Shown one piece after another: positions 3,361 through 9,853 of a DNA stretch of 33,122 nt (position 1 is its first letter; every line of letters starts with the position of its first letter). The translations under genes and the position numbers were made by a program. Source of the stretch: a virus; UHGV virus genome UHGV-0150051; one strand, 5' to 3'. Below the pieces are notes generated by a model. The model had not been told where the DNA came from, made no database searches, and saw nothing but the letters and a program-made list of their open reading frames with translations.

Positions 3361-3632
3361 GTATTCGTATTGAAATTGGCGAACGTTATGTCGTTACCAG
3401 TGACAGCTTTCAGTTTATTCTCCACGAGAAAAAGAGAGCTGAAAGCGGTAAAAACGCCGGTCAGGAATGGCTGGCGGTGGTTGGTTATTACCCGAAATTA
3501 AGCCAGCTCGTTTCCGGCCTGATGCATCACGATATTCTGACCGGAAGCGCAAAGTCTTTTGCTGATTTAAACGCGCAGGTTGAGCAACTCAGCAAGCGTT
3601 GTTCAAAGGCTTTTGGCTCATATGGCCGTTAA
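3357..3632 (+). CDS. Early hypothetical protein (P2 orf83 position)
   Basis: 91-aa ORF immediately upstream of A, 4-nt overlap with the zinc-finger ORF. Confidence 0.7.
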   Translation: MSIRIEIGERYVVTSDSFQFILHEKKRAESGKNAGQEWLAVVGYYPKLSQLVSGLMHHDILTGSAKSFADLNAQVEQLSKRCSKAFGSYGR

Positions 3633-5910
3633 AGCCTCCGGGCGTTTTGTCCCTCCGTCAGCATTTGCCGCAGGCACCGGTAAGACGTTTACCGGTGCTT
3701 ATGCATGGAACGCGTCACGCGAGGCCGTCGGGCGCGAAAGACCCCTTACACGTGACGAGATGCGTCAGGTGCAAGGTGTTTTATCCACGATTAACCGCCT
3801 GCCTTACTTTTTGCGCTCGCTGTTTACTTCACGCTATGACTACATCCGGCGCAATAAAAGCCCGGTGCACGGGTTTTATTTCCTCACATCCACTTTTCAG
3901 CGTCGTTTATGGCCGCGCATTGAGCGTGTGAATCAGCGCCATGAAATGAACACCGACGCGTCGTTGCTGTTTCTGGCAGAGCGTGATCACTATGCGCGCC
4001 TGCCGGGAATGAATGACAAGGAACTGAAAAAGTTTGCCGCCCGTATCTCATCGCAGCTTTTCATGATGTATGAGGAACTCAGCGATGCCTGGGTGGATGC
4101 GCATGGCGAAAAAGAATCACTATTTACGGATGAGGCTCAGGATCACCTGTATGGTCATGTTGCTGGCGCTGCACGAGCTTTCAATATTTCCCCTCTCTAC
4201 TGGAAAAAATACCGTAAAAGACAGATGACCACGAGGCAGGCATATTCTGCCATTGCCCGTCTGTTTAACGATGAGTGGTGGACTCATCAGCTTAAAGGCC
4301 AGCGTATGCGCTGGCATGAAGCGTTACTGATAGCTGTCGGGGAGGTCAATAAAGACCGTTCTCCTTATGCCAGTAAACACGCCATTCGTGATGTGCGTGC
4401 GCGCCGCCAGGCAAATCTGGAATTTCTTAAATCGTGTGACCTTGAAAACAGGGAAACCGGCGAGCGCATCGACCTTATCAGTAAGGTGATGGGCAGTATT
4501 TCTAATCCTGAAATTCGCCGGATGGAGCTGATGAACACCATTGCCGGTATTGAGCGTTACGCCGCTGCAGAGGGTGATGTGGGGATGTTTATCACGCTGA
4601 CCGCGCCGTCAAAGTATCACCCGACACGTCAGGTAGGAAAAGGCGAAAGTAAAACCGTGCAGCTTAATCACGGCTGGAACGATGAGGCATTTAATCCAAA
4701 GGATGCGCAGCGTTATCTCTGCCGTATCTGGAGCCTGATGCGCACGGCATTCAAGGATAATGATTTACAGGTCTACGGTTTGCGTGTCGTCGAGCCACAC
4801 CACGACGGAACGCCGCACTGGCATATGATGCTTTTTTGTAATTCACGCCAGCGTAACCAGATTATCGAAATCATGCGTCGCTATGCGCTCAAAGAGGATG
4901 GCGACGAAAGAGGAGCCGCGCGAAACCGTTTTCAGGCAAAACACCTTAACCGGGGCGGTGCTGCGGGATATATCGCGAAATACATTTCAAAAAACATCGA
5001 CGGCTATGCACTGGATGGTCAGCTCGATAACGACACCGGCAGGCCGCTGAAAGACACTGCAGCGGCTGTTACTGCATGGGCGTCAACGTGGCGCATCCCG
5101 CAATTTAAAACGGTTGGCCTGCCGACAATGGGGGCTTACCGTGAACTACGCAAATTGCCGCGCGGCGTCAGCATTGCTGATGAGTTTGACGAGCGCGTCG
5201 AGGCTGCACGCGCCGCCGCAGACAGTGGTGATTTTGCGTTGTATATCAGCGCGCAGGGTGGGGCAAATGTCCCGCGCGATTGTCAGACTGTCAGAGTCGC
5301 CCGTAGCCCGTCGGATGAAGTTAACGAGTACGAGGAAGAAGTCGAGAGAGTGGTCGGCATTTACGCGCCGCATCTCGGCGCGCGTCATATTCATATCACC
5401 AGAACGACGGACTGGCGCATTGTGCCGAAAGTTCCGGTCGTTGAGCCTTTGACTTTAAAAAGCGGCATCGCCGCGCCTCGGAGTCCTGTCAATAACTGTG
5501 GAAAGCCTGCCAGCAGTGATACTTCGTTACTGGCTCCCACGCCTTCTGAACACGCCGCAGCAGTGCTTAATCTGGTAGATGACGGTGTTATCGAATGGAA
5601 TGACCCGGAGGTCGTGAGGGCGCTAAGGGGCGCATTAAAACACGACCTGAGAACGCCAAATCGTCAGCAAAGAAACGGAAGCCCGTTAAAACCGCATGAG
5701 ATAGCGCCATCGGCCAGACTGACTAGGTCGGAACGAATGCAAATTACCCGTATCCGCGTTGACCTCGCTCAGAACGGTATCAGGCCGCAGCGATGGGAGC
5801 TTGAGGCGCTGGCGCGTGGCGCGACGGTAAAGTTTGACGGACGAAAGTTTATATATCCAATAAGTGGTGAGTGGAAGCAGTTTTTTAGTGGCTTTGATCT
5901 TTTTAAGTAA
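3622..5910 (+). CDS. A: Replication initiator A (rolling-circle HUH endonuclease)
   Basis: Long ORF; I place the start at the in-frame ATG 3622 (MAVKASGRF...), not the upstream ATG 3580 that overlaps the preceding ORF. Contains HUH-like PHWHMMLF and paired active-site tyrosines in YIAKYISK. Confidence 0.9.
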   Translation: MAVKASGRFVPPSAFAAGTGKTFTGAYAWNASREAVGRERPLTRDEMRQVQGVLSTINRLPYFLRSLFTSRYDYIRRNKSPVHGFYFLTSTFQRRLWPRIERVNQRHEMNTDASLLFLAERDHYARLPGMNDKELKKFAARISSQLFMMYEELSDAWVDAHGEKESLFTDEAQDHLYGHVAGAARAFNISPLYWKKYRKRQMTTRQAYSAIARLFNDEWWTHQLKGQRMRWHEALLIAVGEVNKDRSPYASKHAIRDVRARRQANLEFLKSCDLENRETGERIDLISKVMGSISNPEIRRMELMNTIAGIERYAAAEGDVGMFITLTAPSKYHPTRQVGKGESKTVQLNHGWNDEAFNPKDAQRYLCRIWSLMRTAFKDNDLQVYGLRVVEPHHDGTPHWHMMLFCNSRQRNQIIEIMRRYALKEDGDERGAARNRFQAKHLNRGGAAGYIAKYISKNIDGYALDGQLDNDTGRPLKDTAAAVTAWASTWRIPQFKTVGLPTMGAYRELRKLPRGVSIADEFDERVEAARAAADSGDFALYISAQGGANVPRDCQTVRVARSPSDEVNEYEEEVERVVGIYAPHLGARHIHITRTTDWRIVPKVPVVEPLTLKSGIAAPRSPVNNCGKPASSDTSLLAPTPSEHAAAVLNLVDDGVIEWNDPEVVRALRGALKHDLRTPNRQQRNGSPLKPHEIAPSARLTRSERMQITRIRVDLAQNGIRPQRWELEALARGATVKFDGRKFIYPISGEWKQFFSGFDLFK

Positions 5911-6090
5911 TTGCCTTAGAATACCCACGTTACCGCTTGGGAAATCTACCTAGCAATGCTCTTAGTATTAGCTTTATACAAAGGGTATAAAGGCTGCCAT
6001 TGGCAACAATGGTGCCAGCATGGAGATAATCTCATGTTAAGGTTAGTGAATGTACGACAGTACAACCGCTACCGCTTTGGGCGCTGGGAG

Positions 6091-6115
6091 ACGGTGCGTA
6101 AGCACCGTCGTTCTT
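6091..6115 (+). terminator. Hairpin (acggtgc-gtaa-gcaccgt) with weak T-tract, about 180 nt downstream of A
   Basis: 7-bp perfect stem with a 4-nt loop followed by cgttctt; orientation and function uncertain. Confidence 0.3.
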
Positions 6116-6137
6116 ACCCGAATCGGTAATATGCGGC

Positions 6138-8345
6138 CTAAGCGGTAACATTTACCTCTTCTTCACCCATCATTGTTAAGTAATGTTTCTCATCACCAGT
6201 CATTCTGAATATTTTGTGCAAGAGTTCTAAGTATTTCTCAGGTTCAATATCGCCCATATCTGTTATGTTTATTGCGTCGGAGTGAGAGCCTCTGTTTATA
6301 TATCTGTAAAAGGCACGGAAATGGCTGTTATTTTCATCATTTGTTAATTCAGTAAGCTTTGCCTCTAATGCGTCAGTTCTATGAACAAATGCAAAGTAAT
6401 ACTCAAGTATATTTCTCATAATATTGGGGATTATTATTTTGTTGATTTTTTTCTCTTTTGCATCTTTTAATACTTGCCAAAGGGATTGGTATTCATTTTG
6501 CACACTTTTTTTATCTATAGCACTAATGATGCTAAATTCATTTTTATTTATTCTGCCAAGAAAGTAGTCACGTTTAAAATTTATTCCTTTTTTAGAGGCG
6601 AGTTTTATTAACTCATGGAAGAAATAAAGATTATGGGTGAGGATTATTATTTTTGATGAAATGCCTTTTTCAATTATGTCATGATGGATCATGGATGCTA
6701 TGTCGAAAACATAGTTTTGAGATAAACTTGATATAGGATCATCTATAACTATGAGTTTATCACGCATATCAGTATCATTTTCATTTGTTTTACCCTTGCA
6801 ACATTCTAAAAAATATAGAAACGTTATTAATGTTTTTTCACCTTCGCTTAATGACCGATATACATCTTGTTTTCTATTGTTTCCATCGCGGGATATTATA
6901 TACTTATCTTTGAGTTCGGCGTGTTTATCAATGCTAAAACCAGAGATGCCAAGAAATTTAAGTCGTGAGTTTATTGCATCTATTGTTGCATCTACACTTG
7001 ATGTTTTATTTCTTAGTTCATTGATTTCATTTGTGTTGATCTCTTCTTTTCTTTTTATTTCCTGCATGAAGGATGCAGCGTTTTCATATTTTTCTTGAAA
7101 GTTTCTTTCGCAGTCTGATAGTATTTCAAATTCCGCGCTACATAAGTCTCTGATTGCTGCCCACATCTTTTCGCGAATATCTATTTCGCTATTATTAAAT
7201 CTTTTTACTTTGTCATTGAACTCGTTAATTTTATTGTTGTATTGTTCTATATCTTCTAATAGTTTTTCCTCTATCGACTTTTCAAACTCCAGCACAATGC
7301 TTATAGATGGATTCTCTATTTTATTATCCAATAGTTTAATGTTTTTTTCTGCAATAGTTTCTAATGCCTTAACATATGAAAGACTTTTATCTTTTTCGTC
7401 TTGGTTTATCACCTCACATGATAAAATGTTACTCTTTATTTCTTCATGATGATTTTTAATGGCATTATCATAAGATAGTTTTATTTGTTGTATTTGATCT
7501 ACTTTTCTTGAGTATGTTTCATCAAAGATAGATTCAATGGCTTTAATAAAATTATCATCTATTGTGTCCCTTTGGCAAAATGGACAAATTTCTCCATTTA
7601 AATATAGCTCTTTGCCTTGTTTAATCCAATCAATATTTTGTAGCTCTTTTATTGCTTCAGATAAATAGCTGTTGCTAGAGTCAATAATTGGTGTGGATAA
7701 TGTTTTTTGAGTTTCTTCAGATAAAACATATCCTTTATAAGGAGTTATCAGAGGTATTTCTTTTCCTTTAAACTCGAGAAGTTTGCTATAAGATTGTATT
7801 AATGATTTTATATCAATATCAGTTTGTGGAGTATACTTTTTTAGATGGTAATAGAAAGTGGCTTTGCTTCCTATTTGACCTTTCATTAATTGTTTTAATT
7901 CTGAACTTCTTATGTCTTTGGTCTTATTCCATATGGAATTTATGCATTCTTGCTCTTTTTTGTTTTTCGCTTCATGGAGTTTTTCGATAAATTCTTTTTT
8001 TTCTTTATGCTGATGTGCTAGTGATTTGTTTAGCTCTTCTTTTTCAGATAGTATTTTTTCAATTTCTGCATTTTTTTGACTGAGGGTAAATATACCTTTT
8101 TGCTCTTTTGCATTATAAAAATTATCTTCTATATATTTTGAGTTGTAGACTAGGGTTCGATAATTATCGATGGGTTCGCATACACATTCCTTATAGGCGG
8201 TGTCTTTAGGATTGTAAAAATAATTTGATATGGTAGATTTTCCACAACCATTTTGCCCATACAATATGTTTATTTTTTTGGATAAATCTAACTCAGTAAA
8301 ATATTCTTTATGATAGCTTGTTACGTTTTTGAGTTTTAATTTCAT
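6138..8345 (-). CDS. Rad50/SMC-like ABC ATPase with long coiled-coil insert and C-terminal domain of unknown function; candidate single-gene anti-phage defence (RloC-like?)
   Basis: 735-aa ORF, visibly AT-rich against the backbone. Walker A GQNGCGKST (res 30-38), ABC signature-like LSEGEK (499-504), Walker B LIVIDDP (531-537), H-loop LTHN (569-572). About 400 K/E-rich residues lie between Walker A and the signature; CPFC at res 254-257 (nt 7575-7586). Good RBS (GAGGG) upstream of the ATG. Confidence 0.85.
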   Translation of the reverse strand: MKLKLKNVTSYHKEYFTELDLSKKINILYGQNGCGKSTISNYFYNPKDTAYKECVCEPIDNYRTLVYNSKYIEDNFYNAKEQKGIFTLSQKNAEIEKILSEKEELNKSLAHQHKEKKEFIEKLHEAKNKKEQECINSIWNKTKDIRSSELKQLMKGQIGSKATFYYHLKKYTPQTDIDIKSLIQSYSKLLEFKGKEIPLITPYKGYVLSEETQKTLSTPIIDSSNSYLSEAIKELQNIDWIKQGKELYLNGEICPFCQRDTIDDNFIKAIESIFDETYSRKVDQIQQIKLSYDNAIKNHHEEIKSNILSCEVINQDEKDKSLSYVKALETIAEKNIKLLDNKIENPSISIVLEFEKSIEEKLLEDIEQYNNKINEFNDKVKRFNNSEIDIREKMWAAIRDLCSAEFEILSDCERNFQEKYENAASFMQEIKRKEEINTNEINELRNKTSSVDATIDAINSRLKFLGISGFSIDKHAELKDKYIISRDGNNRKQDVYRSLSEGEKTLITFLYFLECCKGKTNENDTDMRDKLIVIDDPISSLSQNYVFDIASMIHHDIIEKGISSKIIILTHNLYFFHELIKLASKKGINFKRDYFLGRINKNEFSIISAIDKKSVQNEYQSLWQVLKDAKEKKINKIIIPNIMRNILEYYFAFVHRTDALEAKLTELTNDENNSHFRAFYRYINRGSHSDAINITDMGDIEPEKYLELLHKIFRMTGDEKHYLTMMGEEEVNVTA

Positions 8346-8631
8346 TTTATCCCTCTTTTTATTCTTTTTATATTTAGCCTTAAGTGTTCGAGGTTGCCTT
8401 CCTCAACGATAGAGATCTAACCTAACTTTTTGATTTATTCAAGAGAATTTAGTGAGTTATATGTAAAGATGTGGATGCTTAGCTATGTGGTTGGGGGTTA
8501 TTTCAGTATGAATTCATTTGATGCATCATTTTGCATGTACCTGTTAGGCATTTTCTAACTTTGCAGTGTCAGAACTGGCGTACTTTAGGCCATTCATGCA
8601 AGTGCATTAAAACCGCCCCATTAAGCGGGCG

Positions 8632-8650
8632 GGCGAGGCGGGGAAAGCAC
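8632..8650 (+). other. cos: cos site (19-nt cohesive end sequence GGCGAGGCGGGGAAAGCAC)
   Basis: Exact match to the P2 cohesive-end sequence as I recall it, between the cargo gene and portal gene Q where P2 cos lies. Confidence 0.7.
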
Positions 8651-8791
8651 TGCGCGCTGGCGGTGTTGCTGATTTTATTTTTTCAGCGTCTCAGCGCGTC
8701 GTGACGGCGCTTAGTCTGTCCGTTGGGCGTTGGTTTGCCTGCGGGCTGTTTTGTGCGGTGGTGAGTGTGTGAGGGCGTGATGACGGGATGT

Positions 8792-8813
8792 AAAAAAGCC
8801 GCCCGCAGGCGGC
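8792..8813 (-). terminator. Rho-independent terminator downstream of Q (minus strand)
   Basis: gccgcc-cgca-ggcggc hairpin preceded on the plus strand by AAAAAA (a U-tract after the hairpin on the minus strand), directly after the Q stop. Confidence 0.55.
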
Positions 8814-8818
8814 GATGT

Positions 8819-9853
8819 TCAGCTGTTGTCAGTGTCCAGTGAGTAGTTTTTAAAGCGGATGACCTCCTGACCGAGCCAGCCGTTTATTTCCCGAATCCTG
8901 TCCTGTAACGGGATAAGCTCATTGCGGACAAAGACCTTTGCCACTTTCTCAATATCACCCAGCGACCCGACGTTCTCCGGCTTACCGCCCATCAACTGAA
9001 AGGGGATGCGGTGCGCGTCCAGCAGGTCAGCGGCGCTTGCTTTTTTGATATTAAAAAAATCGTCCTTCGTTGCCACTTCACTGAGCGGGATAATTTTAAT
9101 GCCGTCGGCTTTCCCCTGTGGGGCATAGAGAAACAGATTTTTAAAGTTGTTGCGGCCTTTCGACTTCACCATGTTTTCGCGGAGCATTTCGATATCGTTG
9201 CGATCCTGCACGGCATCGGTGACGTACATGATGTATCCAGCATGTGCGCCGTTTTCGTAATACTTGCGGCGGAACAGCGTGGCCGATTCATTCAGCCAGG
9301 CAGAGTTAAGGGCGCTGAGATATTCCGGCAGGCCGTACAGTTCCTGATTAATATCCGGCTCCAGCAGATGAAACACGGAGCCGGGCGCGAAAGGTGTCGG
9401 CTCGTTGAAGGACGGCACCCACCAGTAAACATCCTCCTCCACGCCACGGCGGGTATATTTTGCCGGTGAGGTTTCCAGTCTGATGACCTTACCGGTGGTG
9501 CTGTAACGCTTTTCCAGAAACGCATTACCGAAAACCAGAAAATCCAGCACAAAGCGGCTGAAATCCTGCTGGGAAAGCCACGGATGCGGGATAAACGTTG
9601 AAGCCAGAATATTACGTTTGACGTAAATCGGTGAGCTGTGATGTACGGCAGCACGCAGGCTTTTTGCCAGACCGGTAAAGCTGACCGGTGGCTCATACCA
9701 TCTGCCGTTACTGATGCACTCGACGTAATCCAGAATGTCACGGCGGTCGAGTACCGGCACCGGCTCACCAAAGGTGAATGCCTCCATTTTCGGGGCGCTG
9801 GCGGTCATTGTTTTCACCGCTGGCTGCGGTGTTTTCCCTTTTTTCTTGCTCAT
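8819..9853 (-). CDS. Q: Portal protein Q
   Basis: 344-aa ORF (P2 Q is 344 aa); adjacent to cos and to terminase P with a 1-nt overlap. Confidence 0.95.
   Translation of the reverse strand: MSKKKGKTPQPAVKTMTASAPKMEAFTFGEPVPVLDRRDILDYVECISNGRWYEPPVSFTGLAKSLRAAVHHSSPIYVKRNILASTFIPHPWLSQQDFSRFVLDFLVFGNAFLEKRYSTTGKVIRLETSPAKYTRRGVEEDVYWWVPSFNEPTPFAPGSVFHLLEPDINQELYGLPEYLSALNSAWLNESATLFRRKYYENGAHAGYIMYVTDAVQDRNDIEMLRENMVKSKGRNNFKNLFLYAPQGKADGIKIIPLSEVATKDDFFNIKKASAADLLDAHRIPFQLMGGKPENVGSLGDIEKVAKVFVRNELIPLQDRIREINGWLGQEVIRFKNYSLDTDNS

What the first reader, a model, noticed from the sequence alone, without database searches (positions are those of the whole stretch)
6141..6578. C-terminal ~145-aa domain of the ATPase with R-E-H spacing reminiscent of PrrC/RloC anticodon nuclease
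After the H-loop the protein continues for ~145 residues with no ATPase motifs. It contains R656, E661 and H688 (VHRTDALEAKL ... NRGSHSD). The PrrC anticodon nuclease catalytic triad is Arg-x3-Glu with a His about 32 residues later, as I recall. The spacing here is similar but not identical, so this is a hypothesis about the effector (tRNA cleavage), not a call.
Basis: inference. Interest (0 to 1): 0.6.

Follow-up and report, generated by a model that had tools for sequence, protein, structure and literature searches.

The report
RloC-like anticodon nuclease in P2 prophage

Summary
The 735-aa ORF (6138-8345, minus strand) is the only gene in the low-GC "hotspot" of a P2-like prophage, between replication gene A and cos/portal gene Q. 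R656, E661 and H688 exist at the stated coordinates. The conserved residues are N641, R644, E648, S687 and H688, invariant or nearly so in 115 divergent relatives. They form R-x3-E-x39-SH, which fits the published RloC motif (Arg-X3-Glu-X36-52-His, Ser before His). A profile-profile alignment to PrrC (97.6%, E 2.6e-12) places R644, E648 and H688 on the PrrC triad. The ATPase carries a helical insert with an invariant CPFC zinc-hook motif, and its predicted structure resembles Rad50/SMC heads, as in RloC. There is no linked R-M system and no partner gene. Rousset 2022 lists this exact protein accession as AAA_13 in its P2 hotspot table and notes a related AAA_13 system as "RloC-like". A 58%-identical APEC O1 protein occupies the same locus. 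Verdict: the anticodon-nuclease reading is supported by homology, with the triad corrected. The family is known, but this subfamily is untested experimentally. Interest is low.

The parts
6138..8345 (-). Whole gene: 735-aa RloC-like ABC-ATPase / anticodon-nuclease-type protein (identical or near-identical to WP_023146974, annotated 'AAA family ATPase')
   Evidence: ORF list. Pfam AAA_13 over residues 16-713, E 4.9e-104. PADLOC PDC-S06, E 4e-254. RefSeq annotation in NZ_CP059003.
8079..8345 (-). ATPase head, N-terminal lobe (res 1-89), with Walker A GQNGCGKST (res 30-38, nt 8232-8258)
   Evidence: Motif positions. G30, G35 and K36 conserved 113/115. Strands and helices in the AF2 model. Rad50/SMC head matches.
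6951..8078 (-). Helical (coiled-coil type) insert splitting the ATPase head (res 90-465)
   Evidence: AF2 full-length model: long helices 90-141 and 403-448 flank a mostly helical region. Profile hits to coiled-coil proteins over 270-470.
7575..7586 (-). CPFC (res 254-257): CxxC zinc-hook motif in a loop inside the insert
   Evidence: C254 115/115 and C257 114/115. Invariant in A1 and A4. Lies in loop 249-263 of the model. Weak profile match of 253-311 to the Rad50 zinc-hook structure 6zff (E 0.053). The RloC definition is in PMC2610378.
6510..6950 (-). ATPase head, C-terminal lobe (res 466-612): ABC signature LSEGEK (499-504, nt 6834-6851), Walker B/D-loop LIVIDDPISSL (531-541, nt 6723-6755), H-loop LTHN (569-572, nt 6630-6641)
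   Evidence: L499, S500, G502, E503, D535, D536, P537 and H571 all 115/115. Aligned to the corresponding PrrC motifs.
6141..6509 (-). C-terminal all-helical domain (res 613-735): PrrC/RloC-type anticodon-nuclease (HEPN-class) domain
   Evidence: Helices 618-630, 636-653, 657-668, 674-684, 691-699, 702-715 and 719-725. 3144 cluster representatives match the domain profile, almost always at the C-terminus of ~720-760-aa proteins.
6402..6425 (-). N641-I-M-R644-N-I-L-E648: the conserved Arg-x3-Glu of the predicted catalytic triad (plus invariant N641)
   Evidence: N641 and R644 115/115, E648 114/115. Aligned to PrrC LLRNLYE, i.e. R320/E324 of E. coli PrrC.
6282..6287 (-). S687-H688: predicted catalytic His preceded by Ser
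   Evidence: Both 115/115. Aligned to PrrC TSH (H356 of E. coli PrrC). 'Ser often precedes His' in RloC.
6363..6380 (-).
   Evidence: R656 8/115 (G, K and N are commoner). E661 33/115.
6180..6185 (-). H721-Y722: a further invariant His in the last helix, of unknown role
   Evidence: H721 115/115, Y722 105/115.
8632..8650 (+). P2 cos cohesive-end sequence. It marks the gene as lying in the cos-proximal P2 hotspot.
   Evidence: Exact 19-nt match, 0 expected by chance. The sequence was recalled from memory. The hotspot definition is in PMC9122126.
3580..5910 (+). Flank: P2 gpA-type replication endonuclease
8819..9853 (-). Flank: P2 gpQ-type portal protein

Best explanation
The gene encodes a stand-alone RloC-type abortive-infection or superinfection-exclusion enzyme carried as a moron in the cos-proximal hotspot of a P2-like prophage.

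Shown here:
- a Rad50/SMC-like ABC ATPase head with all motifs intact
- a helical insert splitting the head, carrying an invariant CxxC zinc-hook motif
- a C-terminal helical domain homologous to the PrrC/RloC anticodon-nuclease domain, with the triad R644-x3-E648-x39-(S687)H688

Inferred by analogy with Geobacillus and Acinetobacter RloC:
- In the lysogen the nuclease is held inactive by its own ATPase/zinc-hook switch.
- A DNA-level signal of infection, such as DNA ends or breaks, drives ATP-dependent activation.
- The C-domain then cleaves tRNA anticodon loops without metal, leaving 2',3'-cyclic phosphate ends and possibly excising the wobble nucleotide. This halts translation and blocks the competing phage.
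For: Family and domain: Pfam AAA_13 matches full length (E 4.9e-104), and the 146-aa C-domain alone hits its C-terminal part (E 6e-19). PADLOC gives PDC-S06 (4e-254) and the PrrC model over 434-716 (3.4e-16).

Triad: hhalign against PrrC gives 97.6% and E 2.6e-12, with R644/E648/S687-H688 on PrrC R/E/SH. The C-domain-only hhalign gives the same register, E 0.0035. N641, R644, S687 and H688 are 115/115 and E648 is 114/115 in relatives only 22-43% identical. The motif fits the published Arg-X3-Glu-X36-52-His with Ser before His, and Ala substitution of each triad residue abolished GkaRloC activity (PMC2610378).

Zinc hook and head: CPFC is 115/115 and 114/115. The predicted head resembles Rad50/SMC, and the insert is helical.

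Naming: relatives are named 'wobble nucleotide-excising tRNase' by JGI (P0059 at 31% identity, P0065) and 'translation-disabling ACNase' in Streptococcus prophages.

Context: the gene is the only one between gpA and cos/portal, which is the P2 hotspot that holds old/tin in P2 itself (PMC9122126). Rousset Table S5A lists WP_023146974 as AAA_13. Table S5B notes system 5, another AAA_13 protein 47% identical over its first 399 residues, as 'RloC-like'. No conserved partner and no R-M system appears in other genera.

Mechanism: the RloC internal switch and its activation by DNA breaks are from PMC3458546 and PMC3874168.
Against: - No experiment exists on this subfamily. It was not among the eight additional P2 hotspot systems that Rousset et al. 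cloned and tested, as far as the main text shows. PADLOC lists it only as a candidate (PDC-S06), and PHROGs gives 'unknown function'.
- Identity to the ~800-aa canonical-length RloC-like proteins is only 18-23%.
- I did not align it directly to the GkaRloC or AbaRloC sequences.
- The C-domain-only profile match to PrrC is modest (E 0.0035, probability 9%).
- The loop holding S687-H688 has pLDDT below 50 in the full-length model.
- The classical HEPN R-x4-6-H arginine (R681 here) is not conserved (33/115).
- The RNA target, cleavage chemistry and trigger are all inferred.
Confidence: 0.7

Rival explanations
1. A PrrC-type system in the strict sense: a tRNA-Lys anticodon nuclease kept silent by a linked type I R-M enzyme and released by a phage anti-restriction peptide.
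For: The C-lobe of the ATPase and the nuclease domain align to PrrC.
Against: No hsd/R-M genes are in the window; the gene sits alone between gpA and cos. The protein is 735 aa with a roughly 375-residue helical insert and a CxxC motif that PrrC (~396-400 aa) lacks. The PrrC region KYGDSNKSFSY, implicated in tRNA-Lys recognition (motif and role recalled from memory, not checked in a paper), aligns to unrelated sequence (DKKSVQNEYQSL). The best PADLOC model is PDC-S06, not PrrC.
Confidence: 0.04
2. A Rad50/SMC-like DNA-sensing ATPase whose C-terminal domain is regulatory or RNA/DNA-binding rather than catalytic. Defence, if any, would work through a partner nuclease supplied in trans, as in the Lamassu, PARIS or retron PtuA logic.
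For: Structural neighbours of the head include LmuB, AriA and retron ATPases, which act with separate effectors. The C-domain fold search gives no decisive HEPN match. The HEPN R-x4-6-H arginine is not conserved.
Against: No partner gene is conserved next to it in E. coli, Pantoea or Zhongshania. The residues that are catalytic in PrrC and GkaRloC are invariant across 115 divergent clusters, which would not be expected of a purely structural domain. RloC itself needs no partner (PMC3458546).
Confidence: 0.1
3. A HEPN-class RNase of the same family but with a different substrate (mRNA, rRNA or phage transcripts) or a different trigger from canonical RloC.
For: Identity to canonical-length RloC-like proteins is only about 20%. 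There are extra invariant residues (N641, H721-Y722) not part of the published triad. Substrate preference already differs between PrrC and RloC.
Against: Every characterised member of the PrrC/RloC clade cuts tRNA anticodon loops. Nothing in the sequence points to another substrate.
Confidence: 0.15

Closest known systems
RloC (COG4694, 'wobble nucleotide-excising tRNase'); characterised in Geobacillus kaustophilus (R692/E696/H737) and Acinetobacter baylyi ADP1 (826 aa)
   Same: ABC ATPase head split by a helical insert with a CxxC zinc hook. C-terminal domain with Arg-x3-Glu-x36-52-(Ser)His. Stand-alone gene, laterally mobile, not linked to R-M. Near relatives (31% identity, full length) carry the RloC name from JGI.
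   Different: Shorter (735 aa against about 800-826 aa). Only about 20% identical to the ~800-aa group. The best PADLOC sub-model (PDLC04886) differs from the one that best matches the Acinetobacter-type protein (PDLC04887). Resident in a P2 prophage hotspot. Activity, target and trigger are untested.
Prophage-borne ABC-HEPN family prototyped by APECO1_4465 (Anantharaman et al. 2013), and the 'RloC-like' AAA_13 system no. 5 of the P2 hotspot (Rousset et al. 2022, Table S5B)
   Same: Same locus (gpA-[gene]-cos-portal) in P2-like prophages of E. coli. The APEC O1 protein WP_000423308 at that locus is 58% identical over its full length. The representative of Rousset system 5 is 47% identical over its first 399 residues. 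The exact accession WP_023146974 is listed in Table S5A.
   Different: A different allele or cluster of the same family. That WP_000423308 is the protein called APECO1_4465 is my inference from gene order and the paper's description, and is not verified. Neither paper tested the protein.
PrrC anticodon nuclease (E. coli prr locus)
   Same: ABC-ATPase C-lobe motifs and a C-terminal nuclease domain with a triad in the same register (R320/E324/H356 against R644/E648/H688).
   Different: PrrC is about 400 aa, has no coiled-coil or zinc-hook insert, is embedded in a type Ic hsd locus that silences it, and has a 31-residue Glu-His gap against 39 here.
Rad50 / SMC-type ABC ATPases, and defence ATPases built on them (Lamassu LmuB, PARIS AriA, retron PtuA-type)
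   Same: Head fold and a coiled-coil insertion. The zinc-hook CxxC is as in Rad50.
   Different: Those proteins lack the C-terminal PrrC/RloC nuclease domain and work with separate nuclease partners.

Membership tests
RloC | ABC-ATPase motifs (Walker A, signature, Walker B/D-loop, H-loop) present and conserved | tested here: met
   GQNGCGKST 30-38, LSEGEK 499-504, VIDDPISSL 533-541, LTHN 569-572. All key residues are 113-115 of 115.
RloC | Coiled-coil insert in the ATPase domain carrying a loop with a conserved CxxC zinc hook (Rad50-like) | tested here: met
   CPFC 254-257, with C254 115/115 and C257 114/115. Helical insert 90-465 with CPFC in loop 249-263 of the AF2 model. Rad50 proteins are the top structural matches. 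Zinc binding itself was not tested.
RloC | C-terminal Arg-X3-Glu-X36-52-His motif, with Ser often preceding His (PMC2610378) | tested here: met
   R644-x3-E648-x39-S687-H688. Conserved 114-115 of 115. The motif with SH occurs in 1.2% of shuffles.
RloC | Detectable homology of the C-domain to the PrrC ACNase domain | tested here: met
   hhalign 97.6%, E 2.6e-12 over 482-717. C-domain only: E 0.0035, same register. PADLOC PrrC model to residue 716.
RloC | Direct sequence relationship to an experimentally characterised RloC (GkaRloC or AbaRloC) | not tested
The only links are indirect: JGI-named 'wobble nucleotide-excising tRNase' relatives, and a ~815-aa Acinetobacter pittii protein that falls under the same PADLOC PDC-S06 model set.
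RloC | tRNA anticodon-loop cleavage with wobble-nucleotide excision; activation by the DNA-dependent ATPase and zinc-hook switch | not testable with these tools
   Biochemical property (PMC2610378, PMC3458546).
PrrC | Gene embedded in, and silenced by, a type I R-M (hsd) locus | tested here: not met
   Single gene between P2 gpA and cos/portal. No hsd genes in the window.
PrrC | About 400-aa architecture without a coiled-coil/zinc-hook insert | tested here: not met
   735 aa with a ~375-residue insert and CPFC. PrrC proteins are 374-411 aa.
HEPN superfamily (as assigned to PrrC/RloC by Anantharaman 2013) | Four-helix-bundle-type all-alpha fold | tested here: inconclusive
HEPN superfamily (as assigned to PrrC/RloC by Anantharaman 2013) | Conserved R-x4-6-H motif | tested here: inconclusive
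   H688 is invariant. This protein has R681-x6-H688, but R681 is conserved in only 33/115 relatives. PrrC proteins do have an invariant R-x6-H (R352...H359 in P0081 numbering).
P2 cos-proximal defence hotspot cargo (Rousset 2022) | Located between gpA and gpQ next to cos in a P2-like prophage | tested here: met
   gpA 3580-5910, gene 6138-8345, cos 8632-8650, portal 8819-9853. GC is 29-35% against about 55% in the flanks. The accession is listed in Table S5A.

The most novel reading that the evidence does not exclude
This ~735-aa prophage-borne branch (PADLOC PDLC04886/04890 type, about 20% identical to canonical RloC) may be a functionally distinct anticodon nuclease. It has extra invariant residues (N641, H721-Y722). 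Its RNA target or cleavage mode could differ from RloC. Its Rad50-like head could sense the DNA ends of an incoming competitor phage directly, without any R-M involvement, giving P2 lysogens a self-contained sensor-effector.
Probability: 0.25. Interest if true: 0.45.

Novelty: already known. Interest (0 to 1): 0.2.

Why it matters
The result matters mainly as a correction and an annotation. RefSeq calls the protein 'AAA family ATPase', PHROGs 'unknown function' and PADLOC a candidate (PDC-S06). The evidence supports calling it an RloC-like anticodon nuclease carried by a P2 prophage.

The corrected triad (R644/E648/H688) is what a mutagenesis experiment should target.

Two gaps remain. No member of this prophage subfamily has been tested for phage defence or tRNA cleavage. 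No PrrC or RloC nuclease-domain structure was found in the PDB copy searched, so an experimental structure or assay would still be modestly useful. Conceptually it adds nothing beyond what Davidov & Kaufmann 2008, Anantharaman 2013 and Rousset 2022 already describe.

Tried and rejected
- **PrrC sequence from memory.** The best database cluster was only 89% identical, so the recalled sequence is not exact and I did not use it as evidence. All PrrC comparisons use 16 database proteins (A2), several named 'anticodon nuclease' and one confirmed by the PADLOC PrrC model at E 3.4e-147.
- **PDB by sequence.** The single-sequence search found nothing. The profile search found only ATPase-head and coiled-coil matches and no solved PrrC/RloC nuclease domain.
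- **Foldseek against afdb50.** The library was unavailable.
- **Partner gene.** Small ORFs in the 5911-6137 and 8346-8818 gaps show nothing convincing. The promoter scan is at background; the terminator-like hairpins above background lie around cos.
- **Classical HEPN R-x4-6-H.** Present here (R681-x6-H688) but not conserved in the subfamily, so I rejected it as a family-wide feature.
- **APECO1_4465 identity.** I tried to confirm it from the HEPN paper's supplement, which is not held. The first 50-kb stretch of APEC O1 that I fetched was the wrong region.
- **Other.** No tRNA genes are in the window. The third homologous-protein search and the genome and metagenome scans were not needed.
Full report
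**Observation**

The finding covers window 6141-6578 on the minus strand. This is residues 590-735 of a 735-aa ORF (6138-8345, minus strand). R656 and E661 lie in VHRTDALEAKL and H688 in NRGSHSD, as stated, and no ATPase motif follows the H-loop LTHN (569-572). The description is therefore accurate.

As evidence the pattern is empty. R-x3-4-E followed 20-45 residues later by His appears in 51% of 5000 shuffles of this 146-aa segment.

**What is conserved**

I aligned 31 homologues down to 18% identity (A1). I then aligned 115 full-length representatives of different 50%-identity clusters, 22-43% identical to the query, recovered with a profile of the C-domain from 1.84 billion representatives.

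| Residue | Conservation (of 115) |
|---|---|
| N641 | 115 |
| R644 | 115 |
| E648 | 114 (+1 Asp) |
| S687 | 115 |
| H688 | 115 |
| H721 | 115 |

The conserved motif is NIMRNILEYYF ... GSH, that is R644-x3-E648-x39-S687-H688. Davidov & Kaufmann defined the RloC motif as 'Arg-X3-Glu-X36-52His (where Ser often precedes His)', matching PrrC R320/E324/H356 and GkaRloC R692/E696/H737. They showed that Ala substitution of any of the three abolishes GkaRloC activity (PMC2610378). The Glu-His gap in the 115 relatives is 34-40 residues. The motif with SH arises in 1.2% of shuffles.

**Homology to anticodon nucleases**

- Pfam AAA_13 matches residues 16-713 (E 4.9e-104).
- The 146-aa segment alone matches profile positions 597-712 of 713 (E 6e-19, above the gathering score). 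The domain is therefore part of that family model despite its name, 'AAA domain'.
- PADLOC gives PDC-S06 (E 4e-254). Its PrrC model covers residues 434-716 (E 3.4e-16).
- I built a PrrC alignment from 16 database proteins (A2). Several are named 'anticodon nuclease' by NCBI, and one scores E 3.4e-147 on the PADLOC PrrC model.
- hhalign of A1 against A2 gives 97.6% probability and E 2.6e-12 over residues 482-717 against PrrC 157-386. [quoted passage not shown] R644 aligns to the PrrC Arg, E648 to the Glu and S687-H688 to SH.
- The C-domains alone give the same register at E 0.0035.

Neither part is met.

**RloC-like rather than PrrC-like**

The ATPase head is split by an insert of about 375 residues. 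The full-length AlphaFold model (mean pLDDT 81.8) shows this insert as largely helical, with long helices 90-141 and 403-448 at its base. CPFC (254-257) sits in a loop. C254 is 115/115 and C257 is 114/115. This is the coiled-coil/zinc-hook insert that distinguishes RloC from PrrC.

Foldseek of the full model against the PDB returns Rad50 first, then SMC heads, then Lamassu LmuB, retron ATPases and AriA. A profile search also touches the Rad50 zinc-hook structure 6zff at residues 253-311, but weakly (E 0.053).

JGI names near relatives 'wobble nucleotide-excising tRNase' (P0059, 31% identity over 99% of the length; P0065). Streptococcus prophage records annotate homologues as 'translation-disabling ACNase'. 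The PADLOC PDC-S06 model set also covers the ~800-aa Acinetobacter-type proteins, so PDC-S06 corresponds to the broad RloC family.

The defining features of PrrC are not met. There is no hsd locus and the protein does not have the ~400-aa architecture.

**Fold**

The classical HEPN Arg is present here (R681-x6-H688) but not conserved in the subfamily. No PrrC or RloC nuclease domain was found in the PDB copy by sequence or by fold.

**Context**

The window is a P2-like prophage: integrase, C/Cox, gpA, then this gene, then cos, portal, terminase, capsid, lysis and tail genes.

- The gene is the only credible ORF in a 29-35% GC island, against about 55% in the flanks.
- The 19-nt P2 cohesive end lies at 8632-8650.
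- This is the cos-proximal hotspot between gpA and gpQ that holds old and tin in P2 and was shown to be a reservoir of anti-phage systems (PMC9122126).
- 30 of 5426 complete E. coli genomes carry a place that covers at least 80% of the 2,951-nt query (gene plus flanks). The first 12 listed are 98-100% identical; the next three are about 73-74%.
- Homologues in Pantoea (in an integrative element) and Zhongshania (chromosomal) have no conserved neighbour and no R-M system. This matches the stand-alone, laterally mobile habit described for RloC.

**Prior knowledge**

Rousset et al. list the exact accession annotated here, WP_023146974, as 'AAA_13' in their table of P2 hotspot loci. Their summary table notes AAA_13 system no. 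5 (420 occurrences) as 'RloC-like'. That representative is 47% identical to this protein over its first 399 residues, without gaps. The main text does not name it among the cloned and tested systems.

Anantharaman et al. described ABC-HEPN proteins 'prototyped by APECO1_4465' in integrated prophages and proposed a role in superinfection exclusion. APEC O1 carries a P2-like prophage with a 738-aa AAA ATPase at the same locus, 58% identical to this protein over its full length. That this is APECO1_4465 is my inference and is not verified.

**Mechanism**

Shown: the domain architecture, the conserved triad, the zinc-hook motif, the single-gene organisation and the hotspot location.

Inferred from characterised RloC: self-silencing by the ATPase/zinc-hook switch, activation by ATP hydrolysis in the presence of DNA or DNA breaks, metal-independent cleavage of tRNA anticodon loops, and the resulting arrest of translation that excludes a competing phage.

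My confidence is about 0.85 that this is an RloC-family protein by sequence criteria. It is about 0.65-0.7 that it acts as a tRNA-cleaving abortive-infection enzyme.

**Verdict**

The protein family and its likely role are already in the literature. Interest is low (0.2). The useful outputs are the corrected triad, the zinc hook, and the observation that this subfamily remains experimentally untested.

Noticed in passing
window 8632-8650 (+): Exact 19-nt P2 cohesive-end (cos) sequence GGCGAGGCGGGGAAAGCAC between the RloC-like gene and the portal gene. G+C-rich hairpins flank it (8613-8632, 8646-8667).
   Followed up: partly
window 24434-25552 (-): A second low-GC island (35-37% GC) downstream of the long tail-fibre-region ORF. 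It encodes a 372-aa family-2 glycosyltransferase (Pfam Glycos_transf_2, E 1.6e-28) with no PADLOC hit. It may be a moron that modifies the surface or O-antigen.
   Followed up: partly
window 18071-18856 (-): A third low-GC island (35% GC), inserted among the phage late genes. It encodes a 261-aa protein with no significant Pfam or PADLOC match (only DUF6535, below threshold). Function unknown.
   Followed up: partly
window 6180-6185 (-), residues H721-Y722: A further invariant His (115/115), followed by Tyr/Phe, in the last helix of the nuclease domain. It is not part of the published PrrC/RloC triad, and its role is unknown.
   Followed up: partly
L007 35932-38148 (E. coli APEC O1, NC_008563 925932-928148): APEC O1 carries a P2-like prophage with a 58%-identical, 738-aa allele of the same gene at the same gpA/portal locus. 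It is probably the 'APECO1_4465' ABC-HEPN prototype of Anantharaman 2013.
   Followed up: partly
L003 2182-5585 (Pantoea ananatis CP020943): A 40%-identical homologue sits in an integrative or mobilisable element (relaxase, resolvase, ParB/RepB), directly downstream of an HxsD plus two radical-SAM gene cluster. I did not examine whether this adjacency is meaningful.
   Followed up: no
window residue 611 (nt 6513-6515): The window protein has Ile where the database cluster representative P0001 has Thr (EFSIISAI against EFSTISAI). This is a single-residue allele difference in a non-conserved position.
   Followed up: no
PADLOC models PDLC04886-04898 (PDC-S06): The PADLOC 'candidate' system PDC-S06 appears to be the broad RloC family. 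Its sub-models give the top hits for this protein, for a JGI-named wobble-nucleotide-excising tRNase, and for ~800-aa Acinetobacter-type proteins. A 2025 preprint mentions another E. coli AAA-ATPase that PADLOC calls PDC-S06, among high-scoring proteins its authors think may be true positives.
   Followed up: partly
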